DNA from: a virus
Lineage: Duplodnaviria > Heunggongvirae > Uroviricota > Caudoviricetes
IMG/VR virus record: IMGVR_UViG_3300032046_000009
DNA: 64,000 bases
Reading direction: 5' to 3' (one strand)
Position numbers and translations under genes: made by a program
The notes under the pieces: model-generated
What the model saw: only the letters and a program-made list of their open reading frames with translations
The model's database searches: none
Told to the model about the DNA's origin: nothing
Shown here: positions 8,150-57,068 of the stretch, piece by piece
How the letters are laid out: each line of letters begins with the position of its first letter
Numbering within the stretch: the first letter of the stretch is position 1

Positions 8150-8533
8150 TCAGAGAGGAATAACACCTAGCCATTTATAAACTTCGGTGTTAATTTCAGC
8201 CATACCCGAACCCGTCCATACGTTGTGAGGAATAGAAGTATGAAGAGACTCTGGAATGAAAATAACGTGTGATTTATCGATGTGGTGTCCTTCTGAACCG
8301 TTAAAAGGTGCGTTTAGAATAATAGAGCCTAATTCTCGGCGTTTAGCTTGAATCCTAGCTTGCGTTTTCTTGTGATAAATTCGATGTTCTCTCTCATATT
8401 TTCTCTCATAGTTTGGGTTTTCTAATCTCCATTTCCTCTTATATAACTTTACCTCTTTCTTATGTTTCAAACGCCAATTCTTGTAATATGTAATACGTTT
8501 TTCTCTTGAATCTGTGAGCGTCATTTGATTCAC
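8150..8533 (-). CDS. His-rich nuclease-like protein, paralog of 9378..9704
   Basis: shared KRRELG and GHHID..VIxIPxxLHxSIxHxVWTGxGMAEIN. Confidence 0.65.
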   Translation of the reverse strand: MNQMTLTDSREKRITYYKNWRLKHKKEVKLYKRKWRLENPNYERKYEREHRIYHKKTQARIQAKRRELGSIILNAPFNGSEGHHIDKSHVIFIPESLHTSIPHNVWTGSGMAEINTEVYKWLGVIPL

Positions 8534-8579
8534 ATTAAACTAAATGTTAAACGTGCTTATAAAGGTTTCGGTAAAAGTT

Positions 8580-8830
8580 AGTTGGAACACGGGGGAGAGT
8601 GTGCCCCCGTGTTCTCGGACGTGGTTTGTGGTTTTTTGTCAGTTGAAGCACAAGTTGGTGGAATGCCCCGTGTACGGGACAAACCTTCGGTCTTGTGCGG
8701 TTCCGTTCTTTGTCGCTTATTTCGAACGTAACCCTAGCGACTATGAAGGGTCGGCAAGTTTGTGAGCGTATAGCTCTTTGGTCTTGCGCGCCCTTTGTTT
8801 AGACGCAAGCGCGTCATGTATTATTGAGAT
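8580..8830 (-). ncRNA. candidate GC-rich structured RNA
   Basis: TATA 8841-8848 fires leftward; no minus ORF; perfect 11-bp hairpin gaacacggggg/cccccgtgttc 8585-8614. Confidence 0.45.
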
Positions 8831-8870
8831 GTCAAACGACTATATAAACTTTTCGGGAGAAAGACCATGT

Positions 8871-9254
8871 TTATTGTCTGGGTTTGTTTGCCCTTTCTCT
8901 AAAATCGTCTGTTTCTTGTTGTGTGAAAACTTTATCAATAGCTGGAAGTCTATCGCTCTTTACATAACCATGTAAAAGGTTTCTCTCTTCTACATATTCA
9001 TTATCGCTTTCAGCGTTCAAGTTGTGAGAAATAGCTGATAAACTTTCGTATGGAAGAATTCGGTTTAATACTTCATAAATTGCAACTTCATTGAATTCGT
9101 GAACGAACAACTCAGCACCAATATCATCAGCGATTATACTGTCAATGGAATAGATAACTTTGGTAATTTTAGTATCATATCTTGAAATAGTCCCAGAAGC
9201 CAAAGCTGTTCCATCGAGTTCAGCGTTATCGAAGTAAATTTTCTCCGTGTTCAT
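8871..9254 (-). CDS. hypothetical protein
   Basis: track 8871..9266; ATG 6 nt after GGTGA beside palindrome 9267-9282. Confidence 0.6.
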   Translation of the reverse strand: MNTEKIYFDNAELDGTALASGTISRYDTKITKVIYSIDSIIADDIGAELFVHEFNEVAIYEVLNRILPYESLSAISHNLNAESDNEYVEERNLLHGYVKSDRLPAIDKVFTQQETDDFRERANKPRQ

Positions 9255-9266
9255 CGCGTTCACCAA

Positions 9267-9282
9267 TTAATCAACTGATTAA
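9267..9282. promoter_or_regulatory. 16-bp palindrome TTAATCAACTGATTAA (between TATA and start)
   Basis: read directly; second copy at 9332-9347 flanks the same promoter. Confidence 0.7.
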
Positions 9283-9331
9283 TCAGTACAGCGCGCTATA
9301 TAAAGTTTCGCCTAGAACGTCCATGTTCGAG

Positions 9332-9347
9332 TTAATCAACTGATTAA
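9332..9347. promoter_or_regulatory. 16-bp palindrome TTAATCAACTGATTAA (promoter-distal copy)
   Basis: read directly. Confidence 0.7.
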
Positions 9348-9377
9348 AAATTCGCTAAAAACCACTTGTCGCCACGT

Positions 9378-9704
9378 TTATGTGGTAAGCCATTCGAAAA
9401 CTTTATCATTTATTTCTGCCATACCCTGACCTGTCCAAACGCAATGATGAATAGAAATATGAAGTTCTCTGGGAATATAGATAACACATTCAAAATCTAT
9501 ATGATGAGCAACAGAGCCAATAAATCTCCCATTAAAAGGGTCAAACCCTAATTCTCGCCGTTTTGCATTCTTCATTTTAGTTCGCTCTGGGTGTTTTTTT
9601 CCCCACATTTTTATTTGTTCTCGTTGTCTCTTTTTTTGTGATTCAGTTTTCTCTTTTATTTCAACGTCAAAATTTCCAATAGACTTTAATCGCATCTGAA
9701 TCAT
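9378..9704 (-). CDS. His-rich nuclease-like protein, paralog of 8150..8533
   Basis: VAHHIDFECVIYIPRELHISIHHCVWTGQGMAEIN; class II TATA 9730-9737. Confidence 0.65.
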   Translation of the reverse strand: MIQMRLKSIGNFDVEIKEKTESQKKRQREQIKMWGKKHPERTKMKNAKRRELGFDPFNGRFIGSVAHHIDFECVIYIPRELHISIHHCVWTGQGMAEINDKVFEWLTT

Positions 9705-9745
9705 CTAAAGATAAAATAGTAGAAGTTGCTTATAAAGGTTATGGT

Positions 9746-9961
9746 TTATGTAAATTGAACCTGTTCTATGTCTTTCTTTTTGATGATTTTTTCGAAACAG
9801 TCAGGGCAGAGCCACGTTAAAGTTATGCCAATTTTTCCTCTTTCTTGTACTTTTCCTTTCAAACGATAAACTTTTAGGCTGTTTTTCCAACAATTAGTGC
9901 AACTATAATAGCTTATTGATGAAATACAAATATTATAATCGGTTTTTGTTAGTTGAATCAT
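9746..9961 (-). CDS. small Zn-ribbon protein, last cassette of array A
   Basis: ATG in JM; ends EQVQFT then TAA (start of JM lost). Confidence 0.65.
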   Translation of the reverse strand: MIQLTKTDYNICISSISYYSCTNCWKNSLKVYRLKGKVQERGKIGITLTWLCPDCFEKIIKKKDIEQVQFT

Positions 9962-10200
9962 GTAAACTCTACCTTCTCTTTGCTGTTGAGAAAATCCTTA
10001 AACCACTTTTCCTTTTCCCATTCTTCAATGGGCGTATGAAAACCTAAAAGCGTCCCATGTTCTTTGTCAAACCTTTTTGAAAAATATCTCTTCCATTCTT
10101 CGTTACAACTTTCGCAGAGAACAGCCAATAATAGTTTAATTGGAAATTGACCGCTAACTATTCTTTTGCATTTTCTACAACGTCCTTTAAATTTTGTCAT
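9958..10200 (-). CDS. small Zn-ribbon protein (family B)
   Basis: JM both ends; CRKC..CESC-x3-W; ends EKVEFT. Confidence 0.7.
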   Translation of the reverse strand: MTKFKGRCRKCKRIVSGQFPIKLLLAVLCESCNEEWKRYFSKRFDKEHGTLLGFHTPIEEWEKEKWFKDFLNSKEKVEFT

Positions 10201-10424
10201 GTAAATTCAACCGTTTCCCGTTCACTCTTCCAATACTCACATGAACAACCTAAACGATAAGAATGTCTAGGACTACCTAACGGAGTTTTCACGTCCCTTA
10301 AAAATCCTGTAGCTTTCCCGTTCGGTTCAGTTAAGTTAGGTTGTGAGCGCATCTCTGTGCATTTATAATAAATCTTGTCGAGATTCCTCTTGTTCGAACA
10401 GTTAAAGCAACCTTTCTCTTTCAA
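10197..10424 (-). CDS. small Cys protein (family C, GCFNC..GCSC)
   Basis: track 10197..10493 trimmed to TTG in JM 10421-10441; ends ETVEFT. Confidence 0.6.
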   Translation of the reverse strand: MKEKGCFNCSNKRNLDKIYYKCTEMRSQPNLTEPNGKATGFLRDVKTPLGSPRHSYRLGCSCEYWKSERETVEFT

Positions 10425-10660
10425 GTGAAATTGACCTTCTCTTTTGTTGTTACTTTGCGTTTTAATAGCCACTTTTTGAAAAAAGACTCCCAAGTATTAT
10501 CTCTTCTATCGTGAAAGAAGTCATGTCGTTCTTGTGATTTTTCCCACAAAATACCATGTGAGTCGCAAAGATAAAGTTTTTCCTCAGTCTGTATATCGTG
10601 ATAATTTGCATAACCTTTTTTACCGCAAATACAACACTTTTTACGGTTTGAATTTATCAT
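10421..10660 (-). CDS. small Zn-ribbon protein (family B)
   Basis: JM both ends; CCICG..CDSHGILW; ends EKVNFT. Confidence 0.7.
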   Translation of the reverse strand: MINSNRKKCCICGKKGYANYHDIQTEEKLYLCDSHGILWEKSQERHDFFHDRRDNTWESFFKKWLLKRKVTTKEKVNFT

Positions 10661-10836
10661 GTGAACTCGACCTGTTCTTTTTCGTTAGCCTTTTTATAAC
10701 AAACATTTAGGGTATTGCCTTTGAATCCTCTTTCTATTGAACATGGTTTGCAATAACACACGTTCGCGCTCAATTTATGCAAACTATCACATATATTATT
10801 GCAAGTGAATCTCTTTCCACAAACTTTACAAATCAT
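10657..10836 (-). CDS. 59-aa 8-Cys protein (family A; not in track)
   Basis: hand translation MICKVCGKRFTCNNIC..CYCKPC..EQVEFT; ATGA overlaps. Confidence 0.6.
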   Translation of the reverse strand: MICKVCGKRFTCNNICDSLHKLSANVCYCKPCSIERGFKGNTLNVCYKKANEKEQVEFT

Positions 10837-11051
10837 GTGAACGTCACCGTTTCCCGTCCCTTTAGACGGTTAATAATCTCTCGCGCCTTCATTTTGTCTA
10901 AGAGTTCCATTATCTCTGGGTTATCGGAAAGTAACTTGTCTATGCGTTCGCCTTGCTCTCTGAGCCTGTCTAGCTCGTACATCATACAATTAAAGCATAA
11001 TTTCTCGTTAATTCGTTGTTTGAACTCGTTTCCACATTTAGAACAAATCAT
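10833..11051 (-). CDS. small Zn-ribbon protein (family B)
   Basis: track 10833..11087 trimmed to ATG in JM; ends ETVTFT. Confidence 0.65.
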   Translation of the reverse strand: MICSKCGNEFKQRINEKLCFNCMMYELDRLREQGERIDKLLSDNPEIMELLDKMKAREIINRLKGRETVTFT

Positions 11052-11194
11052 GTGAAACAGACCTTTTCTCTTCCTTTGTTGTTGCATTGCTTACACATTC
11101 TTGAACCTATCTTCTTTGCATCCGCATAGTTTTTAACGGGAATATTGAGAGGTCTGCCACATTTTGAACACGGTATAACGAGAACGCCCGTCAT
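11048..11194 (-). CDS. 48-aa Zn-ribbon protein (not in track)
   Basis: CSKCG..CKQC; ends EKVCFT; ATGA overlaps. Confidence 0.55.
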   Translation of the reverse strand: MTGVLVIPCSKCGRPLNIPVKNYADAKKIGSRMCKQCNNKGREKVCFT

Positions 11195-11397
11195 GTGAAT
11201 AACACCTTCTCTTTTGGCTCTGGGGTTTTATATAGTTTGGTTCCTCGCGCTTTCATTTGAGAATTAAGTTCTTGACAACATTTATCAATTTCATCATAAT
11301 CAATACTGTTTTCGTGACATTTATCGTGCATCTTGCATTCCGTACACAAATCCTCATAATCGTACTCGATATAACCGTTATCGTCTATTGTTGTCAT
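11191..11397 (-). CDS. acidic Cys-containing small protein
   Basis: track trimmed to ATG in JM 11394; ends EKVLFT. Confidence 0.65.
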   Translation of the reverse strand: MTTIDDNGYIEYDYEDLCTECKMHDKCHENSIDYDEIDKCCQELNSQMKARGTKLYKTPEPKEKVLFT

Positions 11398-11588
11398 GTG
11401 AAACATACCTTCTCCTTTTGTTGTAATTCGATTAAATCTGTATCAGATACAACATACCTTTCGGTTTTATATCTTATATCAATGGTTCTGTTTGACATAA
11501 TTCTTGTAATTTTAACAAATGAACCTTTGGGGCAATGCCTAAAGCCAGCGTATTTTAGCTTTGCCTTATCGCCAACTTGAAACGTCAC
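11394..11588 (-). CDS. small beta-barrel (SH3/KOW-like) protein
   Basis: GTG after GGGTGAT; VGDKA motif; ends EKVCFT. Confidence 0.6.
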   Translation of the reverse strand: MTFQVGDKAKLKYAGFRHCPKGSFVKITRIMSNRTIDIRYKTERYVVSDTDLIELQQKEKVCFT

Positions 11589-11704
11589 GAGAAAATCACC
11601 CGTTCTTTTCTTCTGTCTAGCCAGCGATTAAACTCTGCCGTATGAATGAAACATCTAAGTTTTCCTGTATCTTTGTCGAACACTATTATAGCACAGTCAG
11701 TCAT
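11585..11704 (-). CDS. 39-aa protein (not in track)
   Basis: ATG in JM 11701; ends ERVIFS; GTGA overlap. Confidence 0.45.
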   Translation of the reverse strand: MTDCAIIVFDKDTGKLRCFIHTAEFNRWLDRRKERVIFS

Positions 11705-11994
11705 GTAAACGTCACCTTTTCCCTTTTGTCGTATTCTGTTTTTAAACTGTCCTTTAAAAGCCATCCATTCGGATTTTCTCTCATAAATTGTTCAGCATGA
11801 CTTTTTGCCTCTTCATAAGTGTTAAAGATTCCCTCAGTATCGTATTTTCCTGTTTTATCATCTCTGAGCCAAATCTCTGTGCACTCACATTCATTGGGAG
11901 TATGAGTTTCACAATCTTCATAAACGTCTAAACTAAGAAATTCGGTTCCTATTCTCCACGAATTAGTTCCATCCCAGACCCATTTACCCGTCAT
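11701..11994 (-). CDS. hypothetical small protein
   Basis: track 11701..12042 trimmed to ATG in JM; ends EKVTFT. Confidence 0.65.
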   Translation of the reverse strand: MTGKWVWDGTNSWRIGTEFLSLDVYEDCETHTPNECECTEIWLRDDKTGKYDTEGIFNTYEEAKSHAEQFMRENPNGWLLKDSLKTEYDKREKVTFT

Positions 11995-12188
11995 GTAAAG
12001 TTCACCTTTTCCTTTGCGTCTGGGTATCTTTGCGCTTTGCATTCTTTATGTTTATAGTTAAGAAAAGGCAATAAGCATAGAGGTTTATAGGGGTTCTTTC
12101 TGTGAACCTTATGAGGACATTCTGCCTCATCAATGCAAATAGGGACATCGTGATTTTTCAGAAGAGCCTTTAAGTTTAAATCCGTCAC
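11991..12188 (-). CDS. hypothetical small protein, first gene of array A
   Basis: GTG after GAGGGG; ends EKVNFT. Confidence 0.6.
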   Translation of the reverse strand: MTDLNLKALLKNHDVPICIDEAECPHKVHRKNPYKPLCLLPFLNYKHKECKAQRYPDAKEKVNFT

Positions 12189-12368
12189 GCTTTCAACCCC
12201 TCTCTAAACTTGCCATGTGCGAACGGTTGACCGTGATGTGAGCCTGTCGGCAGACTTGAATAGAAACGTCTAAGTTTTCGGACGTTCAACGGCAGACCCC
12301 CGTGACTTTGCGTTTTGCGAGTTTGCGCTTTATCCTATGAAGTTTTCCCGTATTAATCACCTGATTAA

Positions 12369-12420
12369 CTAGAACAACACCGTGACTTATAAAGGTTGTT
12401 CCAGAAAGACCATTCTCGAA
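12369..12420 (-). promoter_or_regulatory. class I promoter for array A, palindrome 12353-12368 adjacent
   Basis: cgtgacttataaaggttgttccagaaagaccattctcgaa; about 160-nt ORF-free leader follows. Confidence 0.55.
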
Positions 12421-12635
12421 ATACTGTTCCGTATCTTACAACTTTCGAGTTTAAGCCCATATTCAGCCTCTAATTGCTTCGCCCTCTTCGCCAGCCCGTC
12501 CTTATAGGATTTAACGCCCAGAATGAGCAGACAATCTTTCATCCATCCCTCATAAACGATTAGTTTGTCCCCCTCAATTCGAACTCCAAATCCAATATGC
12601 CCAAGTTTTCGAGCTACGTTCTTCAAATCAGTCAT
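12387..12635 (-). CDS. hypothetical small protein
   Basis: 82 aa; ATG in JM 12632. Confidence 0.65.
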   Translation of the reverse strand: MTDLKNVARKLGHIGFGVRIEGDKLIVYEGWMKDCLLILGVKSYKDGLAKRAKQLEAEYGLKLESCKIRNSISRMVFLEQPL

Positions 12636-12853
12636 GTAAATTCAACCCTCTCAGGAACCATGAATTTCACCTTTCGAATTATGTCACCGTGAACGAAATA
12701 CTTTGACCATTTTCGTTTTACCACACACACGGTAAAAACAAGTGGGGTTTTTTTTGTAATTGATTCAACTTCTAGTATCGTGCCTACGGGAACGTAAGGA
12801 TTATTTGATTTAAGCAACCGTACAAAATCGCCAGCTTTTATTATTTGATTCAT
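12632..12853 (-). CDS. small beta-barrel (SH3/KOW-like) protein
   Basis: AGDFV motif; JM both ends; ends ERVEFT. Confidence 0.65.
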   Translation of the reverse strand: MNQIIKAGDFVRLLKSNNPYVPVGTILEVESITKKTPLVFTVCVVKRKWSKYFVHGDIIRKVKFMVPERVEFT

Positions 12854-13005
12854 GTAAATGCAACCTTTTCCTTCGTCCGTTTGACCTCTACGACTGTGAG
12901 AATGCCCCCTTCGTCCATTCCGTTTGATAACAGACAGTCTTTCATGTCGAGCAATGTCGGGGGGTCGTCCCCTTCGTATGTAACTAAGAATTTCTTTTTA
13001 GACAT
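12850..13005 (-). CDS. 51-aa acidic protein (not in track)
   Basis: hand translation; ends EKVAFT; ATGA overlap. Confidence 0.5.
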   Translation of the reverse strand: MSKKKFLVTYEGDDPPTLLDMKDCLLSNGMDEGGILTVVEVKRTKEKVAFT

Positions 13006-13166
13006 TATTTCACGCTCTTGTTCTCTAGTTTGTAAAGGTCTGAATTAAGAAACGCTTCGGAAAATTCACAACCGTTCAGCCAATTTTCTACTAATCCCCG
13101 TCTAACTTCGTTGCGTGTCAAAATTCGGTTATCCGTCCACGAAGGTTGTTTTGTCAAAGTTTTCAC
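13005..13166 (-). CDS. 53-aa protein (not in track)
   Basis: GTG in GGACGTGA; TAATG overlap downstream. Confidence 0.4.
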   Translation of the reverse strand: MKTLTKQPSWTDNRILTRNEVRRGLVENWLNGCEFSEAFLNSDLYKLENKSVK

Positions 13167-13279
13167 GTCCGTTCCTTAAAGATTTTTTTCGCTAACGGGT
13201 GTTCTGAAAACTTTTTGCCACCCTCAGTTTCACTAAAGATTTTACGAAATATTTCGTAGCCCGTTAGTTCTTTACTCAT
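13163..13279 (-). CDS. 38-aa protein (not in track)
   Basis: ATG 3 nt after stop of 13283..13561; GTGA overlap. Confidence 0.4.
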   Translation of the reverse strand: MSKELTGYEIFRKIFSETEGGKKFSEHPLAKKIFKERT

Positions 13280-13282
13280 TTT

Positions 13283-13561
13283 TTAATCTTCCTTAATGTG
13301 TGGATTTAATGCAATTCCGTAGGCAACTAAGACTTCTTTAATTTTGCCTATGTCTTTTGTCGAAACATAAAAAGTGGACTCGGTACTAACCTCATATTCA
13401 AATTGAGAAAGAAGGTTGCATATAAGGTCAATATCTTCCTGTTCTTCTATGTCGAAACCGTCTTTTCTAATGAGCAACAGAGAACATGGTACTTTAAGGT
13501 TTGAGAACAGTTTAGCGTCCTCTTCTATTTCTTTGGTTGAAATTATATTGAATTGAAACAT
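13283..13561 (-). CDS. hypothetical acidic protein
   Basis: 92 aa; GCGTGAAAGAAA-ATG leader. Confidence 0.65.
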   Translation of the reverse strand: MFQFNIISTKEIEEDAKLFSNLKVPCSLLLIRKDGFDIEEQEDIDLICNLLSQFEYEVSTESTFYVSTKDIGKIKEVLVAYGIALNPHIKED

Positions 13562-13593
13562 TTTCTTTCACGCTCGAATTTTTGTCTAAGTTT

Positions 13594-14283
13594 TCAGTCC
13601 TCTTCTTTCTTGTTCTTCTTTGCCTTTTCTGCCTTTTGGTCACAGAGAAAACTTTCGCATTGCCCGTTCAATTCGTCCAGCATATTCACGGTGTCTAACA
13701 TTTCGTTATATCGCTCGTGTCCCTTCATGCTTTCGATGTGTGAATTGCAAATCTCAACTGCTTTTCGACATCTCCAAAGTGTGCTCTGAGCCATGCGTTT
13801 GTCTTTTAACCCGTCCTCTGCCATCTTGACGTGTTCCATTATGAAGTTAAGAATGAACTCTGCTTTCTTGTCTTTGTAGTTTTCGAATCCTTCTGGGGTC
13901 GTGAAAATCGGAATGATTTTTATGCGTCTGTCGATGTCCTCAAATCCTTTGCTCTTTGCCTTTGCCTTTATCTCTTCAATTTCTGCAACAGCTAAGTCCA
14001 GCTTATCGCCGTCCAGAAGCCAACTGCTTTCGAGATGTTTCACAGCGTCCAGCTTGAATTTCAGAGCGAACACAATTGCGTTTCTGAAAATTCGCGCAAG
14101 TTTGTTGAATCGCGTGTTTGCGTCCCGTTGTTCTTTTGTCAACTTTTTCTTTTCCGCGTCCGTCAGATATTTCTCGCTGTAAAGGTCATACTCTATTGTA
14201 TAAATCGTTTCGCCGTGTAGTCCTAACGATTCAAGAGCCTTTTCGTCTATGATGAGTTTGTTTGTCGTTTTTTGGTCAGCCAT
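13594..14283 (-). CDS. hypothetical coiled-coil protein
   Basis: track 13594..14292; ATG after AAGTGATTAAA, i.e. palindrome 14285-14300 supplies the SD. Confidence 0.7.
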   Translation of the reverse strand: MADQKTTNKLIIDEKALESLGLHGETIYTIEYDLYSEKYLTDAEKKKLTKEQRDANTRFNKLARIFRNAIVFALKFKLDAVKHLESSWLLDGDKLDLAVAEIEEIKAKAKSKGFEDIDRRIKIIPIFTTPEGFENYKDKKAEFILNFIMEHVKMAEDGLKDKRMAQSTLWRCRKAVEICNSHIESMKGHERYNEMLDTVNMLDELNGQCESFLCDQKAEKAKKNKKEED

Positions 14284-14284
14284 T

Positions 14285-14300
14285 TTAATCACTTGATTAA
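14285..14300. promoter_or_regulatory. 16-bp palindrome TTAATCACTTGATTAA between TATA and start
   Basis: read directly; TATA 14318-14325. Confidence 0.7.
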
Positions 14301-14352
14301 CTATAAATACAGCGTCCTATATAAACGTTTGCTAGGAATCTCCATTCTCATT

Positions 14353-14706
14353 TTACTTAATCAGGTGATTAAACGATTTATGACTAATAATTCTGTGACA
14401 ATTCGCGCAGACTAATCGAACGTCCTCTGGAATTTTCTCTGCCCTTCTCCAACGAACCAATTCTTTTACTCTTCGATTCGCATTTTTTTGTTGTTCATTG
14501 CAACGAAGCCATGTATCGTTTCCTTCATGGTGAAAATCATAAACACAAGAATCAAAATGTTTATCGCAATGAAAACACTTATCGCCTAACTTTTGAATCG
14601 CCCAGAGTTTTAATTCTTCTAGCCATTTTTGGTGATATATCTTTTGGCATTCAGGACATCTTTGAGATTTTGTATTTGTTTCTTTTTCACAGTCTTGACA
14701 TTTCAT
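14353..14706 (-). CDS. HNH endonuclease
   Basis: CPEC..CFHC..HH..N..CANCH; class II TATA 14741-14750. Confidence 0.7.
   Translation of the reverse strand: MKCQDCEKETNTKSQRCPECQKIYHQKWLEELKLWAIQKLGDKCFHCDKHFDSCVYDFHHEGNDTWLRCNEQQKNANRRVKELVRWRRAEKIPEDVRLVCANCHRIISHKSFNHLIK
14357..14372. promoter_or_regulatory. 16-bp palindrome TTAATCAGGTGATTAA, promoter-distal copy
   Basis: read directly; flanks the same promoter about 72 bp away. Confidence 0.7.
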
Positions 14707-14762
14707 TTGAAACACTAATTAATAGATGGTTAATTAAGTATTTAAGTCTTATGGTTGATTAA

Positions 14763-15050
14763 TTAGGTGAATTGAACACATTCTCTCTCAGGAGCTAAGA
14801 GGTTCCATCTGCCCTTATCATAAATGAATTGTTTTCCTTTGAAAAATAAAAAGTCAAAAGGCAAATCATTTTTACGACAAACTTCGCAAAAATAATGCAA
14901 AAAGTGAGTTTCCCTTATTTTTTGTCTATCGTGTTGTGAAAAACTATCTGTGAAAAAAAGTGTTCCACTTTGTTCTTCCAGAATAGAACCACAAGACGGA
15001 CATTTTCGAGTCAAGCGAATTGAACCGCAAGACGGACAATTTTGAATCAA
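14763..15050 (-). CDS. small double Zn-ribbon protein, terminal cassette
   Basis: TTG in JM 15047; CPSCG x2; ends ECVQFT then TAA. Confidence 0.65.
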   Translation of the reverse strand: MIQNCPSCGSIRLTRKCPSCGSILEEQSGTLFFTDSFSQHDRQKIRETHFLHYFCEVCRKNDLPFDFLFFKGKQFIYDKGRWNLLAPERECVQFT

Positions 15051-17210: not shown

Positions 17211-18938
17211 TCACTTCTGGGTTTCTACGTTTAGATACACGTTTAGGAATCTCTGAGGTAATTCGGATATTTGGTTTATCCGTGTTCGTGAGCACTTCAA
17301 GTTTTTCACTTTGCTTGCGAAGGTTTCTACATTCTCACAGTCACAGAAACCTATGAAGATACATTCAATTCCAGCTTTCGCATATTGGTCGATTAATTCC
17401 TCTGCTTTCGTTTCTTCATCACCACAGAAGCAGAAATCGGACGCAATGACCAGAATCTTTCGGCGTTCGCCTTTAATCGTATTGAACATTCTCAGGCTTG
17501 CCTCTAATCCAACGGAAACCTCAGTACCGCCAGCATTCACCGAAATAGCTCCAATTCTTGCCCGTGTGTTTTCGAAGGTTTCAAAGAAAGTCTTTACTTT
17601 CTGGGTATCTGCCCCAAAGCACCCAATACTGAACCCGTAATCGTCAACGTAATGTCCAAAGACCTCATTCAGTATAGTGGTTATCTTTTCAGCCTCTATT
17701 CGACTAACTGACCCTGAGAAATCGAACCAAAATTGAATTGCGACTTGTTCCTTCTCAAATTTTGTTGTTGTACGCAGATACACATTGCGAACGGTTCCCC
17801 TAAAGCTGTTTGTGTAGATGCGTGGAACAATTGGACTCATCATTTTTCCGCGTTTCTGGAAAATGTCCCGTTGAACTCTCGGTTTCATTTTCTTCTTTAG
17901 TTGATTCAATAGCTCGGAAATTTCAGGCTTGCATTCGTCCAGAAGTTTCGAATACGCCTCAAAATCTGGGTCTGGGGCTGGAATCTCTTCGCCTGTGCCT
18001 TCGCCAGCACCCGAACCTTTCTGCAAATCTTCTAGGTGTTTCTTCTTGTCCTCTTCTGCCTTTTCTTGCTCTTCCTCTTTTTCTAGTAATTGCCTAAGTC
18101 TGTCCGATATTTTGCCCTTTACGTTGCCCCCTCTTCTAGAAACGACATATTCCTTTGTCGTATAGTCAGCGTTCAAGTGTTTAGCTACCAATTCATAAAT
18201 CGTTTGGCAAGACCTTATTATGTCGAGTTTGACACGTTGATATTTCGTCCCCTCTAGCACTTTAAGGGCTGTTTCACAGTCCTTTCTAGCATCTGGGCTT
18301 AGTTTGTTCCATAACTCTGTGCATTTAGCCTCATATAGACCTTCATTGCACAAAATTGCAACCATGTAAACCCCGTCTTGTTGTCCAGCTTGAATTGTCA
18401 TGTTTGGAATTTCGTTTTCGCCTAAGTTTTCGCCCTTCGGTAAGATGGTTGACATGGCTATTTGTGGCTTTTCAATTGTGTTGTCTATCATGTCTTTTAG
18501 TATCAAATTCGCCAAAAGTAGCCTCTTGCCGACATCAAACCTGTATCTGAGAATTATGAAATGATTCACGCGCTTATCTTCAACTATGTTGCAAACTTCG
18601 TGAGCCAGCTTGTAAAATCCTCTCTGTCGTTTGATTTTTGTTGTCCAATTGTTGAAAAATTCCCAATTCGGTTTTGTTAGAATCAGATGACCGCACTCGT
18701 GAACCATGTCACCGTCTAGGATTTTTCGGAATAGACGGGGCGATGTTTTCACGAAATCGGGATAACTCTGTAAACTCAAAGAAATCTCAAAGTTTTCCAT
18801 ATTGAAAGCAGAAGTTGGTTGTTCTGGAATATACTTGATACGAATCCGTTTGTCCTTCGTAATTGCTATGGCAAGATTCCTCATCTCGTCAAGTATCTTA
18901 GAGAAGTTGTTCGTCTTTGCTTGTTTCTGCTTTGTCAT
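17211..18938 (-). CDS. VWA-domain protein with N-terminal HExxH (CbbO/NorD-like)
   Basis: HECGH; MIDAS DFSGS; VIASDF; acidic linker. Confidence 0.75.
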   Translation of the reverse strand: MTKQKQAKTNNFSKILDEMRNLAIAITKDKRIRIKYIPEQPTSAFNMENFEISLSLQSYPDFVKTSPRLFRKILDGDMVHECGHLILTKPNWEFFNNWTTKIKRQRGFYKLAHEVCNIVEDKRVNHFIILRYRFDVGKRLLLANLILKDMIDNTIEKPQIAMSTILPKGENLGENEIPNMTIQAGQQDGVYMVAILCNEGLYEAKCTELWNKLSPDARKDCETALKVLEGTKYQRVKLDIIRSCQTIYELVAKHLNADYTTKEYVVSRRGGNVKGKISDRLRQLLEKEEEQEKAEEDKKKHLEDLQKGSGAGEGTGEEIPAPDPDFEAYSKLLDECKPEISELLNQLKKKMKPRVQRDIFQKRGKMMSPIVPRIYTNSFRGTVRNVYLRTTTKFEKEQVAIQFWFDFSGSVSRIEAEKITTILNEVFGHYVDDYGFSIGCFGADTQKVKTFFETFENTRARIGAISVNAGGTEVSVGLEASLRMFNTIKGERRKILVIASDFCFCGDEETKAEELIDQYAKAGIECIFIGFCDCENVETFASKVKNLKCSRTRINQISELPQRFLNVYLNVETQK

Positions 18939-20028: not shown

Positions 20029-20154
20029 CTAATCGAACCGAACTTTCTCTTTTTGTTTATACAATAGTTTTAGACATTCGGGACAAAAAAGTGCACGACT
20101 TCCAGCGAAGGGTTTGCAGAACCAAAGTTTTCCACATCTAAAACATTCTATCAT
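20029..20154 (-). CDS. 41-aa Zn-ribbon protein (not in track), last cassette of array E
   Basis: CFRCG..CPEC; ends EKVRFD + TAG; abuts G-rich hub. Confidence 0.5.
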   Translation of the reverse strand: MIECFRCGKLWFCKPFAGSRALFCPECLKLLYKQKEKVRFD

Positions 20155-20165
20155 TTTCTCTTCTG

Positions 20166-20396
20166 TCAATCGAAACTCACCTTTTCTGGAATCCGAAACA
20201 TAAGTTCAGAAATTCTAATATCGACTTTTCTCTTCTTTATCAGACAAACCATTTGCATTGGAAAATTTCTCTCTTTTTTATGTAGTTCCGCAGACCTAGT
20301 TAATCGGTTGCTCAATGCTTGTAAAGTATGAATTTCACTTTTCAATTCGACAAGTGGTTTCTTTTTCCATTGTGCAAGCGGAGATTTATGGGTCAT
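20166..20396 (-). CDS. basic small protein
   Basis: ATG in JM 20393; ends EKVSFD. Confidence 0.65.
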   Translation of the reverse strand: MTHKSPLAQWKKKPLVELKSEIHTLQALSNRLTRSAELHKKERNFPMQMVCLIKKRKVDIRISELMFRIPEKVSFD

Positions 20397-20608
20397 GTGA
20401 ATGACACCGTTTCTTTAGCTTTACAGAATCGTGAACAAACTTCTTTCAAATCTTTTGGGTATTCCCCAACTTCGGATTTCTCAAACTTTCGCGCACAATC
20501 GGAGCAATAACAACCCCCGTATTGCACTTTGCCATGACTAAGACCTAATCTAGCGCACCCATTATTGCACACGAAATGTTTTCCGCATTTTCCACAAATT
20601 TTGTTCAT
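20393..20608 (-). CDS. 8-Cys small protein (family A)
   Basis: CGKCGKHFVCNNGC..CYCSDC; JM both ends. Confidence 0.7.
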   Translation of the reverse strand: MNKICGKCGKHFVCNNGCARLGLSHGKVQYGGCYCSDCARKFEKSEVGEYPKDLKEVCSRFCKAKETVSFT

Positions 20609-20883
20609 GTGAATCGAACAACCTCTCTCATATTAAACCAGAGATTCCAGCAATATTCCCATCTTCCAAAATGTTTCCCATGAAAGATGCCCCATTCGTC
20701 ATAACATCCTCTACAAATCCAGATGTTATGTTTAAATCCGCTATTTACTAAAAAGATTAAAACCGCATCTATCGTTTTGGTATCTTCGTCTTTATGTTCA
20801 AAATTATTAGAATTGCTTACGTGGAACCATTTCTTTTTTGGAAGAGTTACAGTTATTGGTTTTCCACATTTCGAACATTTCAA
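20605..20883 (-). CDS. small Zn-ribbon protein (family B)
   Basis: CSKCG..CRGCYDEW; ends EVVRFT. Confidence 0.7.
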   Translation of the reverse strand: MKCSKCGKPITVTLPKKKWFHVSNSNNFEHKDEDTKTIDAVLIFLVNSGFKHNIWICRGCYDEWGIFHGKHFGRWEYCWNLWFNMREVVRFT

Positions 20884-21089
20884 GTGAACTCTACCTTCTC
20901 TTTGAGTTTGGCTAAATATTCTGGAATATGGTCTGAAATTATTATGTCATTCGGATATTTTTCATGACTCCACTTGACAAAAACCATCCAACATTTTATA
21001 CAAAGAAACGCCCATTTTCCGTTATTCTTTTCTCCGCACACGGGACAAAAATCTGGAAGTTCTTCTTTATCAACGAGTTTGTTTGTCAA
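20880..21089 (-). CDS. small Zn-ribbon protein (family B)
   Basis: track trimmed to TTG in JM 21086; CPVCG..CIKCW. Confidence 0.65.
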   Translation of the reverse strand: MTNKLVDKEELPDFCPVCGEKNNGKWAFLCIKCWMVFVKWSHEKYPNDIIISDHIPEYLAKLKEKVEFT

Positions 21090-21283
21090 GTGAATAACAC
21101 CTTCTCTTTTTCGGGTATTCCCCCATAGCACAATTCAAGTGACCCTATATCTTCAGTAAATTTTGTTCCCCATTTTTTGATTGAACATTCTTTACAATAG
21201 CATAATGTAGCGTCTGGGGAACATTCTTCGTCACAATTACAGAAGAACTTTTTTCCGCAAACTTGGCACGTCATTTCTTTCAA
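21086..21283 (-). CDS. 8-Cys small protein (family A)
   Basis: TTG in JM; CQVCGKKFFCNC..CYCKEC. Confidence 0.7.
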   Translation of the reverse strand: MKEMTCQVCGKKFFCNCDEECSPDATLCYCKECSIKKWGTKFTEDIGSLELCYGGIPEKEKVLFT

Positions 21284-21423
21284 GTGAATTGAACCTCTTC
21301 TTTTTGTTTTCTCACTTCACAAATCGAACGTTGTCTGCAACTCTTTTGACAAAAATCGTCATAATGATTTATCTCCCCGACATCGCAGTAAATTATTTTT
21401 CCAGCGCAGTATATTTCCGTCAT
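21280..21423 (-). CDS. 47-aa Cys-rich protein (not in track)
   Basis: hand translation; ends EEVQFT; JM both ends. Confidence 0.55.
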   Translation of the reverse strand: MTEIYCAGKIIYCDVGEINHYDDFCQKSCRQRSICEVRKQKEEVQFT

Positions 21424-43882: not shown

Positions 43883-44061
43883 GTGAATTGAACCTTCTCC
43901 CGTTCATTCATAATTGACACATAAACCGTACAATGTTCTCTTATTCTGCAAGATTTTATGCAATATTCTTTGTTAAGCGAATTATGTACTGTGCATCCCG
44001 AAATACTCCATTTAACGTTCAGTTTAGAAGGATGCGTTAAAAGAACTGGTTCAGCACTCAT
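43879..44061 (-). CDS. small Cys protein
   Basis: 60 aa; ends EKVQFT. Confidence 0.6.
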   Translation of the reverse strand: MSAEPVLLTHPSKLNVKWSISGCTVHNSLNKEYCIKSCRIREHCTVYVSIMNEREKVQFT

Positions 44062-44309
44062 GTAAACTGCACCACTTCTCGTTCTTCATATTTCCCACTC
44101 ATAAAGTTTTCCCAAGAATTAGTCCACGCACTTTGGAATTTAATAGAATCAACATTCTTTACTTCCTTATCATAAACTTTTCCCCACGCCGCACGACAAT
44201 TTGGGCAAAGATAAACAGTTTCCAAATTTTGTCCATTTTTATCAATTGGATGTACTCTTACTAACGCATCAGACATATTATTGCACTTGTCACATGGTCT
44301 CTTCATCAT
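44058..44309 (-). CDS. small Zn-ribbon protein (family B)
   Basis: CDKC..CPNCRAAW; ends EVVQFT. Confidence 0.7.
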   Translation of the reverse strand: MMKRPCDKCNNMSDALVRVHPIDKNGQNLETVYLCPNCRAAWGKVYDKEVKNVDSIKFQSAWTNSWENFMSGKYEEREVVQFT

Positions 44310-54525: not shown

Positions 54526-55238
54526 TACTTCTCAGCCTTTTGTGCTTTCTCAAGTTTCTTTTTCAGTTCGGCTATGTGAGCGTCTTTCTTCTTTACTTCT
54601 TCTATGATTTTTGCAGTTTCGGGGTCAATCAATGGTATCATTTCTTCTTTTGTGGGTATCATAGTTTCTGGTTTCTTAAATTGTTCGGCTAGTTTTGCTT
54701 GGCGTTCAGCTTCCATTGCGGCACGTTCTTTCTTCTGTAGTTCATATGCTTCCGCTTTTCTAGTTTCCTGATAGTCTGTCTGGGTTTTTCTGAAAATTTC
54801 ATATTTGTAAATATCAGCGTTACTTATCGAATCTGGAACCACCTTTATGTCATCAGGCACACCCATTGCAATTTTTCGTTCACGATTCTTGGTAGCTTGT
54901 TCGCTTCTAATTTGCCAATTACGACATTTCTGGCACATTGATTTCTCTGGAATCATAACATTGTCAACCTCTGTGTTCGGTTCCTTTATTAGTCTTTTTC
55001 CTTTTTCTTCGAGACTTCGAGTTGAACCCTCAATTTTTGTGCCCATACTATTCCATTCGGTTGGAACAGTTTTACGAAATACCTTCTTACATTTAGGGCA
55101 ACCAAAAATATTCCCATCAATAGACTTCGCCAATTCTGTTTTGTCGTCAGGGCAAGTATGTTTCTTGAAGACGTAAACCTTCAACATTGTTACGAAATAA
55201 TCTTGTCCACATGATGAACATTTCTGTTTTTGTTTCAT
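54525..55238 (-). CDS. Zn-ribbon protein with coiled-coil tail
   Basis: CSSCG, CPKC, CQKC; TATA 55274-55281. Confidence 0.7.
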   Translation of the reverse strand: MKQKQKCSSCGQDYFVTMLKVYVFKKHTCPDDKTELAKSIDGNIFGCPKCKKVFRKTVPTEWNSMGTKIEGSTRSLEEKGKRLIKEPNTEVDNVMIPEKSMCQKCRNWQIRSEQATKNRERKIAMGVPDDIKVVPDSISNADIYKYEIFRKTQTDYQETRKAEAYELQKKERAAMEAERQAKLAEQFKKPETMIPTKEEMIPLIDPETAKIIEEVKKKDAHIAELKKKLEKAQKAEK

Positions 55239-55303
55239 ATTTCAATCACTATAAAGGTATTACGCACTCGTCCTATTTAAACTTTGCGTCAGAAACTCCA
55301 TGC

Positions 55304-55483
55304 TCAACTTCTAATCAATGAGAGGGTCAACCATTCATTGACGAGAACCATAATGTCATCTGGGTATTTTGGAAACTCTGGAATATCTAAAAATAGAAAC
55401 AACTCGATAAAGAAGTAAGGCTTTCGGTCTGTCCAATAAATTCTTTGAACCATCGAAGGACGTATTCTAAGTTCTTTTATCAA
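55304..55483 (-). CDS. 59-aa protein (not in track)
   Basis: TTG in JM variant TTCGATTGA; stop in TTGAGCATGG. Confidence 0.5.
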   Translation of the reverse strand: MIKELRIRPSMVQRIYWTDRKPYFFIELFLFLDIPEFPKYPDDIMVLVNEWLTLSLIRS

Positions 55484-55659
55484 TCGAACTTCACCTTTTC
55501 AGACTCTACACGAACTTTATAACAGTCATCAAATGCATGGGGATTCTCAATATACGAACGAGTTTTCTTCCAACATTTTCTACAGAAACATTCTTTGGTT
55601 CTACAGTCTTTAAACTTGGCATCACATTCGAATTCGATACCGCAATTAAGGCATTTCAA
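55480..55659 (-). CDS. 59-aa 8-Cys protein (family A; not in track)
   Basis: MKCLNCGIEFEC..CFCRKC; ends EKVKFD. Confidence 0.6.
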   Translation of the reverse strand: MKCLNCGIEFECDAKFKDCRTKECFCRKCWKKTRSYIENPHAFDDCYKVRVESEKVKFD

Positions 55660-55805
55660 TCGAATTGGACCTTCTCTATTTTATGAAAATAGTTGTAATA
55701 TTCGTGAGCAAGTCGTACAAACCATCTCATACATGCTCTATGATTACTACCACATTGAGTGGTCGGTGGTGGTATTATACATCCCCATGTATTTTTTGGT
55801 TTCAT
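55656..55805 (-). CDS. 49-aa protein (not in track)
   Basis: ATG in JM 55802; ends EKVQFD. Confidence 0.5.
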   Translation of the reverse strand: MKPKNTWGCIIPPPTTQCGSNHRACMRWFVRLAHEYYNYFHKIEKVQFD

Positions 55806-55948
55806 GTGAACGTAACCTTTTCTTCTTCTACAAATTTAATTGCCATCATAATAAAACGAGTGTACCATCCTAAAGCCGCTCTGCATTTGTTATTTCCAAG
55901 TCGAAATTTGTGATTATGGATTTGCCTATATAATTTTGTTTGAGCCAT
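55802..55948 (-). CDS. 48-aa protein (not in track)
   Basis: ends EKVTFT; 23-nt overlap with upstream gene. Confidence 0.4.
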   Translation of the reverse strand: MAQTKLYRQIHNHKFRLGNNKCRAALGWYTRFIMMAIKFVEEEKVTFT

Positions 55949-56618
55949 CCCGCCATTCCCTCAGTCCGTAACTTTTGTTTGCCTTAATGAACACGAGTGG
56001 ACCGTGGGTATAACTCATTTCCTTAACTTCTCTTTGCAATCTTGGAATCAGATTAAGTTTATCTTGAACGGTCCATTCTGATTTTTGAGCGGCTTGAATA
56101 TCTTTCTTAATAAGGGCATCAGCCATAATGTTGACACAGCATATCTCACCACATTGTATAAGTCTGTCAGTCACGACATGAGTTAATTCGTTAAGTTCTT
56201 CTCCTGTAAAATCATTCACCGTAAAGTGTGAATTAACATTAATCATATGTGGTTGGTCTTTGAAAATAATTTTCGTCCTATATTGCCATTTCTTCCACCA
56301 CGACTGAACCCAAAAATGAACAAATTCCTCTGTGTCTTTTATATCTTGCAAATTTTTGGTTACGCCAAAATTTTCTACAATTAATGATATAATCTCTTCC
56401 ATGATTACTTGTTGCGAAGGTAGAAACTCTTGAGATATTTGTTTATCAACACTCATATGGTTTCTGTCAAGATATTCAGTATAATTCTTAAAGTCTTCAA
56501 TGCAGATTTCATAAACCTTTCGGTCTTCGCCAGTAAGACTTAGCAATGGACAAATTTCAGCTAGATTATTGAAAATTAACGTGTTAATCCAAAATCTCAT
56601 ATCTATATTAAGAGCCAT
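55926..56618 (-). CDS. hypothetical protein
   Basis: 230 aa; TATA 56658-56665. Confidence 0.7.
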   Translation of the reverse strand: MALNIDMRFWINTLIFNNLAEICPLLSLTGEDRKVYEICIEDFKNYTEYLDRNHMSVDKQISQEFLPSQQVIMEEIISLIVENFGVTKNLQDIKDTEEFVHFWVQSWWKKWQYRTKIIFKDQPHMINVNSHFTVNDFTGEELNELTHVVTDRLIQCGEICCVNIMADALIKKDIQAAQKSEWTVQDKLNLIPRLQREVKEMSYTHGPLVFIKANKSYGLREWRDGSNKII

Positions 56619-56792
56619 TATACATCAATACTCCAACTACTATAATCTCTCCGTCCCTTATAAACCTTACGCTAGAATAACCATGCTCAATTTAAAGGTT
56701 ATGATGCCAGTTAATCAACTGATTAAAATATTGGTTTTGATAACCTTCTCCGCCGTTTTCCCATGCTTTCAACATGCTTTATAATATAGTTA

Positions 56793-57068
56793 TCAAACTT
56801 TAGTTCTGATTTTTTTCTGCTTGGCGTGAAACTTTTTGTGACATTTTGTGTGAGCCAATACTAGATATTCAGGAGAATAAGAAACATGGTGAATATCAAC
56901 TTTGTCCCTTCCATCAATCGGAAAATCGGATGCATCAAAAGGCAAACCACAAAAGTAGCATATTGTTGGATTAGACCTTTGCATTATAGAAATTATGTTT
57001 ATCATGCGTTCTTTAAAAAGAAATGTGCGATAGGACTTAGAAATCTTCTTCGTCTTTTTGCTCTTCAA
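56793..57068 (-). CDS. HNH endonuclease
   Basis: CYFCG..DIHH..H..CH..H. Confidence 0.65.
   Translation of the reverse strand: MKSKKTKKISKSYRTFLFKERMINIISIMQRSNPTICYFCGLPFDASDFPIDGRDKVDIHHVSYSPEYLVLAHTKCHKKFHAKQKKIRTKV

What the first reader, a model, noticed from the sequence alone, without database searches (positions are those of the whole stretch)
8150..57068. Several free-standing HNH or His-rich nuclease-like genes, mostly with their own promoters
These are 14353..14706, 46025..46453 (one of the few plus-strand genes), 56793..57068 and the paralog pair 8150..8533 / 9378..9704. The pair shares an unusual motif, HHID..VIxIPxxLHxSIxHxVWTGxGMAEIN. 46025, 14353 and 9378 sit behind class II or individual promoters and between arrays. 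This is the pattern expected for homing-type insertions.
Basis: partly seen in the sequence, partly recalled or inferred. Interest (0 to 1): 0.4.

Follow-up and report, generated by a model that had tools for sequence, protein, structure and literature searches.

The report
Mobile nuclease gene cassettes in a virus
Five small stand-alone genes in this large uncultured virus genome look like selfish DNA-cutting "homing" genes: three are ordinary HNH nucleases, and two belong to a very large, unnamed His-rich protein family whose nuclease activity is likely but unproven.

Summary
All five ORFs exist at the stated coordinates. The pair 8150/9378 are true paralogs (49% identity over 89 aa, E 5e-25), and the quoted motif is real.

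**The three HNH genes.** 14353, 46025 and 56793 match HNH-annotated PHROG families (E 1e-8, 7e-7, 2e-4) and carry the Cys/His motifs. All three fall below Pfam's HNH cut-off.

**The pair.** It matches no Pfam, PHROG, NCBIfam or PDB entry, and profile comparison finds no homology to the HNH genes here. It still belongs to a family of at least 2,166 clusters.
- The family shares a ~60-aa C-terminal domain with invariant N, HH, P and H.
- The domain has a confidently predicted beta-beta-alpha topology.
- It is fused to varied DNA-binding modules: NUMOD3, HTH, zinc ribbons, or the helical repeats also found on the HNH genes.

**Mobility.** Three of the five are not fixed in relatives.
- A 98%-identical strain lacks exactly the promoter-plus-ORF cassette 8153-8593.
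- Other strains carry one hybrid pair gene.
- 14353 is missing from its slot in several relatives. In others that slot holds a pair-type or a 46025-type gene.
- 46025 and 56793 could only be checked in near-identical strains, where they are present.

**Verdict.** Free-standing homing-type nuclease cassettes. The kind is ordinary; the pair's domain is unannotated.

The parts
8150..8533 (-). Pair-family gene A (127 aa). It has N-terminal basic helical repeats and a C-terminal His-rich beta-beta-alpha domain (GHHID..VIFIPESLHTSIPHNVWTG..MAEIN).
   Evidence: The ORF is and the paralogy. The AlphaFold2 model has pLDDT 91.4. The N-terminus (residues 8-68) matches the N-terminal region of the 46025-type HNH family, E 1e-8 to 1e-6.
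8153..8593 (-). Whole cassette A, meaning promoter plus ORF. It is present in the window and absent in strain L033.
   Evidence: L033 is 98.4% identical up to window 8594 and resumes at 8152. In between it has 196 bp of unrelated sequence. L029 and L031 have 125 bp there.
8556..8568 (-). TATA-like promoter box of gene A (AAACCTTTATAAG), about 30 nt before the start codon.
9378..9704 (-). Pair-family gene B (108 aa).
   Evidence: Strains L029, L030 and L031 carry instead a hybrid gene, P0180. It is 83% identical overall: the N-terminal part matches B up to HHID and the C-terminal part differs.
9727..9745 (-). TATA-like promoter box of gene B (ACCATAACCTTTATAAGCA), about 32 nt before the ATG.
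14353..14715 (-). HNH nuclease gene (117-120 aa) with the motif CxxC...DFHH...LVCANCHRIISH.
   Evidence: It matches phrog_2255 'HNH endonuclease' at E 1.3e-8. The family alignment is. hhalign gives 96% probability against the 46025 family. The gene is absent from this slot in L010, L008, L007 and L009 and present in L052.
14739..14755 (-). Promoter box of 14353 (ACCATAAGACTTAAATA).
14357..14372 (.). Palindrome TTAATCAGGTGATTAA (as written on the + strand), overlapped by the last codons of 14353. A copy of its left half, TTAATCAAC, lies at 14752-14760 just upstream of the cassette. The cassette therefore appears to sit inside a palindrome that is intact in L010.
   Evidence: Direct reading. The palindrome has 25 hits against 0.09 expected.
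46025..46453 (+). HNH nuclease gene (139-142 aa) on the opposite strand, with the motif CVCCG...IDHINGDG...VMCSNCN.
   Evidence: It matches phrog_2255 at E 7e-7 and phrog_6050 at E 1e-5. Pfam HNH is sub-threshold. Relatives carry 46025-type genes in other slots. It is present in all four near-identical strain contigs.
45983..45999 (+). Promoter box of 46025 (ACCGAAAGACTTAAATA). It shares a 16-nt core with the 14353 box.
56793..57068 (-). Small HNH-like gene (91 aa) with CYFC...DIHHV...AHTKCHKKFH. It has no promoter of its own and overlaps the upstream gene by 32 nt.
   Evidence: It matches phrog_1271 'HNH endonuclease' at E 1.9e-4. Pfam HNH gives E 0.11. The flanking genes keep a constant 419-bp spacing in the five strain contigs that extend across the gap.

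Best explanation
The five genes are free-standing selfish nuclease cassettes of the homing-endonuclease kind. They lie in a large, uncultured viral genome made mostly of small co-oriented genes.

**Anatomy.** A typical cassette is a short TATA-like promoter about 30 nt upstream of a single ORF. The ORF encodes an N-terminal basic helical-repeat DNA-binding region and a C-terminal metal-dependent nuclease domain. In 14353, 46025 and 56793 that domain is a zinc-knuckle HNH domain. In 8150 and 9378 I infer it to be a cysteine-free His-metal-finger-like domain. H84 would sit at the end of strand 1 as the general base, and H83, H98 and H103 would be metal ligands.

**Proposed mechanism.** When a cassette-bearing genome and a cassette-free genome meet in one cell, the nuclease cuts the cassette-free genome near the empty slot. 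Recombinational repair then copies the cassette in. The slot is usually the junction between the end of a small-gene array and the conserved promoter module of the next operon.

**Shown:** the gene anatomy, the promoter motifs, the family relationships, and the presence/absence and slot-sharing among relatives.

**Inferred:** nuclease activity of the pair family, the cleavage targets, and the homing process itself.
For: **1. HNH identity of three genes.** They match HNH-annotated PHROG families. CxxC...(D/H)H...CxxC(H/N) motifs are present. The 14353 and 46025 families are homologous (hhalign 96%).

**2. Pair family, domain features.**
- The family has 2,166 representative clusters at E<=1e-3 and 1,224 at E<=1e-10.
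- N74, H83, H84, P94 and H103 are invariant. H98 and N115 are at least 90% conserved.
- AlphaFold2 models score pLDDT 91 (full length) and 87 (domain). Both show strand-strand-helix, with HH at the end of strand 1 and H98 in the following helix.

**3. Pair family, architecture.**
- The constant C-terminal domain is fused to varied DNA-binding modules. NUMOD3 occurs in 9 of 71 members, best E 1.6e-16. HTH and zinc ribbons also occur.
- In the window copies the N-terminal repeats match the N-terminus of the 46025-type HNH family.

**4. Mobility.**
- Strain L033 (98% identical) lacks exactly cassette 8153-8593.
- L029, L030 and L031 have one mosaic pair gene and lack the 8150 cassette and the gene between the paralogs.
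- L010, whose AAA_5 protein is 94% identical, has none of the three genes in the homologous 10.8 kb.
- The slot between the AAA_5 gene and the 232-aa gene holds different things in different relatives. It holds 14353 in the window and in L052, a pair-type gene with its own TTTAAATA promoter in L026, 46025-type genes in L011, L018 and L009, and nothing in L010, L008 and L007.
- L011 carries 10 such genes in 20.9 kb, two of them on the opposite strand.

**5. Context.** Relatives also carry LAGLIDADG inteins at two sites of the neighbouring 575-aa gene. This lineage therefore clearly hosts homing elements. No intron family is detected in the window.
Against: - No sequence-level homology links the pair's C-terminal domain to HNH or to any nuclease.
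- The three HNH genes are below Pfam's gathering score. Their joint profile finds only a non-significant McrA hit in the PDB.
- At the 8150 site the cassette-free strains carry other filler sequence (196 or 125 bp), not a clean empty site. General cassette shuffling between conserved flanks would explain the pattern equally well.
- 46025 and 56793 show no polymorphism in the strains available.
- 56793 looks co-transcribed with its operon.
- No cleavage site or activity is known.
Confidence: 0.6

Rival explanations
1. The pair-family proteins are sequence-specific DNA-binding regulators, not nucleases. They might, for example, bind the abundant TTAATCANNTGATTAA palindrome at promoter modules. 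The conserved His residues would hold a structural zinc ion. Only 14353, 46025 and 56793 would be nucleases.
Against: Regulators of core promoters should be conserved and syntenic. These genes are instead lost, duplicated, hybridised and relocated among close relatives. A constant small His-rich domain behind swappable DNA-binding modules (NUMOD3, HTH, zinc ribbon, repeats) is the architecture of modular nucleases. The pair genes occupy the same slots and use the same promoter type as bona fide HNH genes.
Confidence: 0.2
2. The genes are nucleases, but they are kept for the virus's own benefit rather than for homing. Possible roles are host-chromosome degradation, exclusion of competing viruses, or genome processing and packaging. 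Their patchy distribution would reflect ordinary accessory-gene turnover in a hypervariable early region.
For: They lie among about 200 small, rapidly turning-over genes whose content differs even between relatives with 94% identical core proteins. The cassette-free alleles carry other filler DNA rather than clean empty sites. 46025 and 56793 are stable in the strains seen. 56793 is embedded in an operon.
Against: Three unrelated or distant nuclease families alternate in the same slot, which also sits empty in some relatives. Copy number varies from 0 to 10 per ~10-20 kb between relatives. Some copies sit on the opposite strand and have private promoters. Inteins co-occur in the same neighbourhood. 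These features fit selfish elements better than a conserved viral function.
Confidence: 0.15

Closest known systems
Free-standing HNH and GIY-YIG homing endonucleases of large phages (T4 mob and seg genes; the F-Tfl HNH genes of T5-like phages). This comparison rests on my own knowledge.
   Same: They are small stand-alone genes between conserved genes, often with their own promoters and sometimes on the opposite strand. They are sporadically present among relatives, occur in many copies per genome, and have a modular DNA-binding region plus a nuclease domain.
   Different: No sequence similarity to those genes was detected. The window has no match in 50,697 phage records. The promoters here are TATA-like rather than sigma-70 or T4 types. 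Homing has not been demonstrated here.
HNH endonuclease families phrog_2255, phrog_3106, phrog_6050 and phrog_1271, and Pfam PF01844
   Same: 14353, 46025 and 56793 match the PHROG families at E 1e-8 to 2e-4. They carry CxxC...(D/H)H...CxxC(H/N).
   Different: All are below Pfam's gathering score. 56793 has a His in place of one zinc-knuckle Cys and lacks the Asn. The pair family matches none of them.
Phage T5 nicking endonuclease SciA (PDB 9qgx), an HNH-type enzyme
NUMOD3-containing homing endonucleases (I-TevI/I-BmoI-type GIY-YIG and I-HmuI-type HNH); phrog_314 and phrog_655
   Same: Nine of 71 pair-family members carry tandem NUMOD3 repeats that match these families.
   Different: The match covers only the DNA-binding repeats, not the His-rich domain. 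In the pair family the putative catalytic domain is C-terminal. The two window copies have helical repeats instead of NUMOD3.
Colicin E7/E9 DNase-type H-N-H motif (HH...H...H, with three His metal ligands and a His general base). Recalled from memory, not tested.
   Same: The residue pattern is a cysteine-free HH-x13-H-x4-H on a strand-strand-helix core.
   Different: The spacing differs. There is no detectable homology, and the resemblance is unverified structurally.

Membership tests
HNH endonuclease (Pfam PF01844 / His-Me finger): genes 14353, 46025, 56793 | Profile match at or above the curated threshold | tested here: not met
   Pfam HNH gives 46025 E 0.035 (14.7 bits against a cut-off of 21.4), 56793 E 0.11, and 14353 no hit. 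NCBIfam gives nothing. The joint profile finds only McrA in the PDB, at E 2.4.
HNH endonuclease (Pfam PF01844 / His-Me finger): genes 14353, 46025, 56793 | Match to phage protein families annotated as HNH | tested here: met
   14353 matches phrog_2255 at 1.3e-8 and phrog_3106 at 6e-6. 46025 matches phrog_2255 at 7.2e-7 and phrog_6050 at 1.1e-5. 56793 matches phrog_1271 at 1.9e-4.
HNH endonuclease (Pfam PF01844 / His-Me finger): genes 14353, 46025, 56793 | Catalytic (D/H)H, followed by a C-terminal CxxC-(H/N) with paired zinc knuckles | tested here: met
   14353 has CFHC...DFHH...CANCH. 46025 has CVCC...IDH...CSNCN. H, C, N and C are invariant across 14 relatives. 56793 meets this only in part: CYFC...IHH...HTKCH.
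HNH / His-Me finger: pair 8150 and 9378 | Sequence or profile homology to an HNH family | tested here: not met
   No HNH hit for the two genes or for 41 and 71 family members in Pfam. PHROG hits come only through NUMOD3. NCBIfam gives none. PDB profile searches give none. hhalign probability is below 1% against the 14353 and 46025 families.
HNH / His-Me finger: pair 8150 and 9378 | Beta-beta-alpha fold with the catalytic His at the end of strand 1 and a metal ligand on the helix | tested here: inconclusive
HNH / His-Me finger: pair 8150 and 9378 | Invariant His and Asn residues across the family | tested here: met
   N74, H83, H84, P94 and H103 are invariant, and H98 and N115 are at least 90% conserved, in 71 sequences. 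The same pattern holds in 41 and 36 sequences.
Free-standing homing endonuclease gene | Sporadic presence/absence at a given site among close relatives | tested here: met
   This holds for 8150 (L033, L029), 9378 (hybrid in L029-L031, absent in L010) and 14353 (absent in L010, L008, L007 and L009; present in L052). It is not informative for 46025 and 56793, which are present in all near-identical strains with no distant relatives recovered.
Free-standing homing endonuclease gene | Not embedded in an intron or intein | tested here: met
   The window has no Rfam family at gathering score. Each gene is an intergenic stand-alone ORF.
Free-standing homing endonuclease gene | Site-specific cleavage of the gene-less allele and copying of the gene by repair | not testable with these tools
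   This needs biochemistry or co-infection genetics. The host and virus are uncultured.

The most novel reading that the evidence does not exclude
The pair 8150/9378 would define a new cysteine-free His-metal-finger nuclease domain. Its consensus is AKRRxLGFxPLNxPFxGxEGHHIDxxxVIYIPxELHxSIxHNVWTGxNMxxIN, and it has no Pfam, PHROG, NCBIfam or PDB counterpart. The domain would be the catalytic module of a widespread class of free-standing homing endonucleases (at least 2,000 clusters at 50% identity). These occur in uncultured sediment and subsurface viruses and are built by swapping DNA-binding heads (NUMOD3, HTH, zinc ribbon, 15-aa helical repeats). The window's genome is at least ~219 kb, has TATA-like promoters, and may be archaeal.
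Probability: 0.45. Interest if true: 0.55.

Novelty: new variant of a known kind. Interest (0 to 1): 0.4.

Why it matters
Free-standing homing nucleases are common in large phages, so three of the five genes are routine.

The pair is the useful part. It exposes a very large protein family that no domain library names and that is absent from 50,697 sequenced phage isolates. It turned up in only three loci (two MAGs) among 185,579 species genomes, in a scan keyed on one conserved peptide pattern. Its architecture and genomic behaviour nevertheless point to a modular site-specific nuclease.

If confirmed, this would add a nuclease domain to the His-Me finger repertoire and a source of new sequence-specific enzymes. 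It would also let thousands of "hypothetical proteins" in viral metagenomes be annotated.

The strain-level presence/absence alleles found here supply ready-made substrates for a cleavage test.

Tried and rejected
- **DNA and protein searches against 50,697 phage records.** I queried with window 8000-15000, the 575-aa protein and a family-consensus 60-mer. None gave a match.
- **Word-indexed protein searches.** The search with 8150 found only itself. The search with 14353 found only two close relatives.
- **Foldseek against AFDB50.** The library was not available. BFVD gave nothing significant.
- **hhalign of the pair domain against the HNH families assembled from relatives.** No relationship was found.
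- **PHROG 'homing endonuclease' hits of family members.** I checked these and rejected them as evidence for the His-rich domain, because they cover only the NUMOD3 repeats.
- **Search for distant relatives covering 46025 and 56793.** Three viral-contig scans found none. Exact-protein look-ups returned only near-identical strains.
- **Genome-collection scan.** A scan with 8 sequences found 3 loci in MAGs.
- **Intron-borne genes.** I considered this and rejected it, because there is no Rfam hit in the window.
- **The 124-aa opposite-strand ORF in L052.** I considered it as another nuclease gene and rejected it, because its translation looks spurious.
- **Literature searches** for the T5 SciA structure and for NUMOD3 in archaeal viruses gave nothing usable.


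Full report
**Setting**

The window is almost entirely minus-strand small genes at about 38% GC. It has no DNA or protein match in 50,697 phage records. It bridges an 86-kb and a 137-kb metagenomic contig. Relatives come from JGI metagenome contigs (Ga0315xxx, Ga0187xxx, Ga0116118 and others).

Eighty-three ORFs end in V-x-F-[T/S/D], with stop/start overlap. Transcription units begin with TATA-like boxes. A long "class I" module lies about 40-45 nt before the start codon. A short "class II" box lies about 30 nt before it.

**Observation**

All five ORFs exist at the stated coordinates. The pair 8150/9378 is 49% identical over 89 aa (E 5e-25) with the quoted motif. There is no third copy in the window.

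The promoter claims hold for four genes.
- 14353 and 46025 share ACC(A/G)(T/A)AAGACTTAAATA. The pattern has 8 hits against 0.05 expected.
- 8150 and 9378 share CCTTTATAAGCA.
- 56793 has no box, and its TTG start overlaps the upstream gene by 32 nt.

None of the five carries the array tail.

**The three HNH genes**

Pfam gives only sub-threshold HNH hits. PHROG families annotated as HNH endonuclease are matched: 14353 at 1.3e-8, 46025 at 7.2e-7 and 56793 at 1.9e-4.

Relatives supplied seven 14353-type and nine 46025-type sequences. The two alignments are homologous (hhalign 96%, E 1.6e-9). They keep CxxC...(D/H)H...C-x-N-C-(H/N). I accept 14353 and 46025 as HNH nucleases. 56793 is a probable, somewhat degenerate one.

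**The pair**

No Pfam, PHROG, NCBIfam or PDB-sequence hit was found. A word-indexed search found only the protein itself.

An exhaustive profile search found 2,166 representative clusters at E<=1e-3 and 1,224 at E<=1e-10. Every member that carries a source name is called 'hypothetical protein'. The family is absent from phage isolates. In a scan of 185,579 species genomes keyed on one conserved peptide pattern, it turned up in only three MAG loci.

*Conserved residues.* The conserved part is a ~60-aa C-terminal domain. N74, H83, H84, P94 and H103 are invariant. H98 and N115 are at least 90% conserved.

*Predicted structure.* AlphaFold2 predicts the protein confidently, with pLDDT 91.4 for the full length and 87.1 for the domain alone. 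The domain folds as strand (..GHHI), strand (VIFIPE), a short helix containing H98, a loop containing H103, and a final helix. This is the topology of a beta-beta-alpha metal finger. The structural searches are weak, however.
- BFVD gave nothing significant.
- Profile-profile comparison with the HNH families is negative.

*Architecture.* The indirect evidence from domain architecture is stronger.
- Nine of 71 members have tandem NUMOD3 repeats in front of the domain. Their PHROG "homing endonuclease" hits come from those repeats only.
- Other members have HTH or zinc-ribbon heads.
- The N-terminus of 8150 matches the N-terminal repeat region of the 46025-type HNH family, E about 1e-8 to 1e-6.

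A constant His-rich tail behind interchangeable DNA-binding heads is how modular nucleases are built. I put the nuclease reading of the pair at about 60-65%.

**Mobility**

I searched metagenomes with the neighbouring AAA_5 protein and looked up exact-protein contigs.

*8150.* Strain L033 is 98.4% identical down to window 8594 and resumes at 8152. It therefore lacks exactly the promoter-plus-ORF cassette 8153-8593 and has 196 unrelated bases there.

*9378.* Strains L029, L030 and L031 carry a single mosaic pair gene, P0180. It matches 9378 up to HHID and differs after that. These strains lack both the 131-aa gene between the paralogs and the 8150 cassette.

*L010.* Its AAA_5 protein is 94% identical to the window's and its 232-aa protein 93%. 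It has none of the three nuclease-like genes in the homologous 10.8 kb.

*14353.* Homology between relatives and the window resumes at about 14372, where the promoter module of the 232-aa gene begins. The slot between the AAA_5 gene and the 232-aa gene differs between relatives.

| Genome | Content of the slot |
|---|---|
| Window, L052 | 14353-type HNH |
| L026 | Pair-type gene with its own TTTAAATA box |
| L011, L018, L009 | 46025-type genes |
| L010, L008, L007 | No nuclease gene |

*Other copies.* L011 has ten such genes in 20.9 kb, two of them on the opposite strand. L052 has a pair-type gene directly upstream of the 575-aa gene, where the window has none.

*Insertion site of 14353.* Read against L010, the cassette lies inside the palindrome TTAATCANNTGATTAA. 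A copy of its left half lies upstream of the cassette, and the full palindrome lies under the gene's last codons.

*46025 and 56793.* I found only near-identical strains, and both genes are present in all of them. Three further scans found no distant relative.

**Interpretation**

The pattern has five elements:
- private promoters;
- occasional opposite-strand orientation;
- alternation of unrelated nuclease families with empty sites in one slot;
- mosaic alleles;
- copy number from 0 to 10 between relatives.

Together with inteins in the adjacent 575-aa gene of relatives, this is what free-standing homing endonuclease genes look like.

Several caveats apply.
- The cassette-free alleles carry other filler DNA rather than clean empty sites. 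General cassette shuffling between conserved flanks is therefore not excluded.
- The pair's catalytic nature is inferred.
- Two genes could not be tested for mobility.
- Nothing is known about cleavage.

**Novelty and score**

Free-standing HNH genes in a large virus are a known kind. The pair's domain is an unannotated, very large family and probably a cysteine-free variant of the His-metal finger. I rate the finding as a new variant of a known kind, with interest 0.4.

Noticed in passing
window, whole length, e.g. 9746-12188, 20029-26469, 36640-45906: Eighty-three ORFs of at least 40 aa end in V-x-F-[T/S/D], mostly ..EKVQFT. The stop overlaps the next start (ATGA). The ~20-nt junction GAGAAGGTGCAATTCACATGA carries a GGTG ribosome-binding site inside the preceding gene's last codons. 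It may also serve as a portable recombination joint for gene shuffling. Gene content of these arrays differs widely between relatives.
   Followed up: partly
window, 25 sites, e.g. 9267-9282, 9332-9347, 14285-14300, 14357-14372, 56711-56726: The 16-bp palindrome TTAATCANNTGATTAA occurs 25 times against 0.09 expected. It lies at the upstream edge of promoter modules. It also lies just before start codons, where its GGTGAT variant could act as a ribosome-binding site. It could be an operator for an unidentified regulator or a target for the nuclease cassettes.
   Followed up: partly
window, e.g. 7956, 8563, 9304, 9736, 18976, 40235 (first T of the box, minus strand): The promoter-like modules resemble archaeal BRE/TATA promoters rather than sigma-70 ones. 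Class I reads GAGCATGG-nnTTCTTAGCGAAAnnTTTATA(T/A)(A/G)GGACG and class II reads AACC(A/G)(T/A)AAnn(C/T)TT(A/T)AATAC. Class II leaves about 30 nt to the start codon, which would make the mRNA nearly leaderless. Together with the GGTGAT-type ribosome-binding sites, this suggests an archaeal host. It is unverified.
   Followed up: partly
window 1-64000 versus contigs ERZ27247683 k141_72449 and ERZ27247725 k141_946335: The window bridges two contigs. The 86-kb contig starts at window 5247 and runs upward. The 137-kb contig starts at window 9327 and runs downward. The genome is therefore at least about 219 kb. Contig breaks fall in the strain-variable region 5247-9327, next to the pair genes.
   Followed up: partly
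L007:8005-8981; L011:6926-7878 (also in L018); homologous to window gene 17211-18938: The 575-aa protein has an HExxH motif and a vWA-like C-terminus, and its gene neighbours a MoxR-type AAA_5 ATPase gene. In relatives it carries in-frame inteins of about 320 aa with LAGLIDADG motifs at two different sites, after residue 315 and after residue 116. The window copy has no intein.
   Followed up: partly
window ~8600-8870, minus strand; hairpin at ~8600-8632: A 270-nt non-coding stretch lies upstream of the 8150 cassette. It ends in a hairpin, GAACACGGGGG-cacactct-CCCCCGTGTTC. In strains L033 and L029 the stem differs by compensatory changes while the loop is kept. It could be a terminator or a small structured RNA. 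There is no Rfam match.
   Followed up: no
window 49268-49537 (+), with 48973-49155 (+) and 48734-48976 (+): A short plus-strand island includes an 89-aa ParB-N-terminal-like protein with the motif ..ILNGHHRY.. (NCBIfam SerK/ParB hits, E 1e-4 to 1e-2). It also holds two small genes with the array-type tail. This is another possibly nuclease-related gene that the finding does not list.
   Followed up: partly
L011:1-20858 (Ga0187880_1000070) and L018: A relative whose AAA_5 protein is 83% identical packs ten nuclease-like genes into 20.9 kb: three pair-type, two 14353-type and five 46025-type. It also carries an intein. This is a far higher load than in the window.
   Followed up: partly
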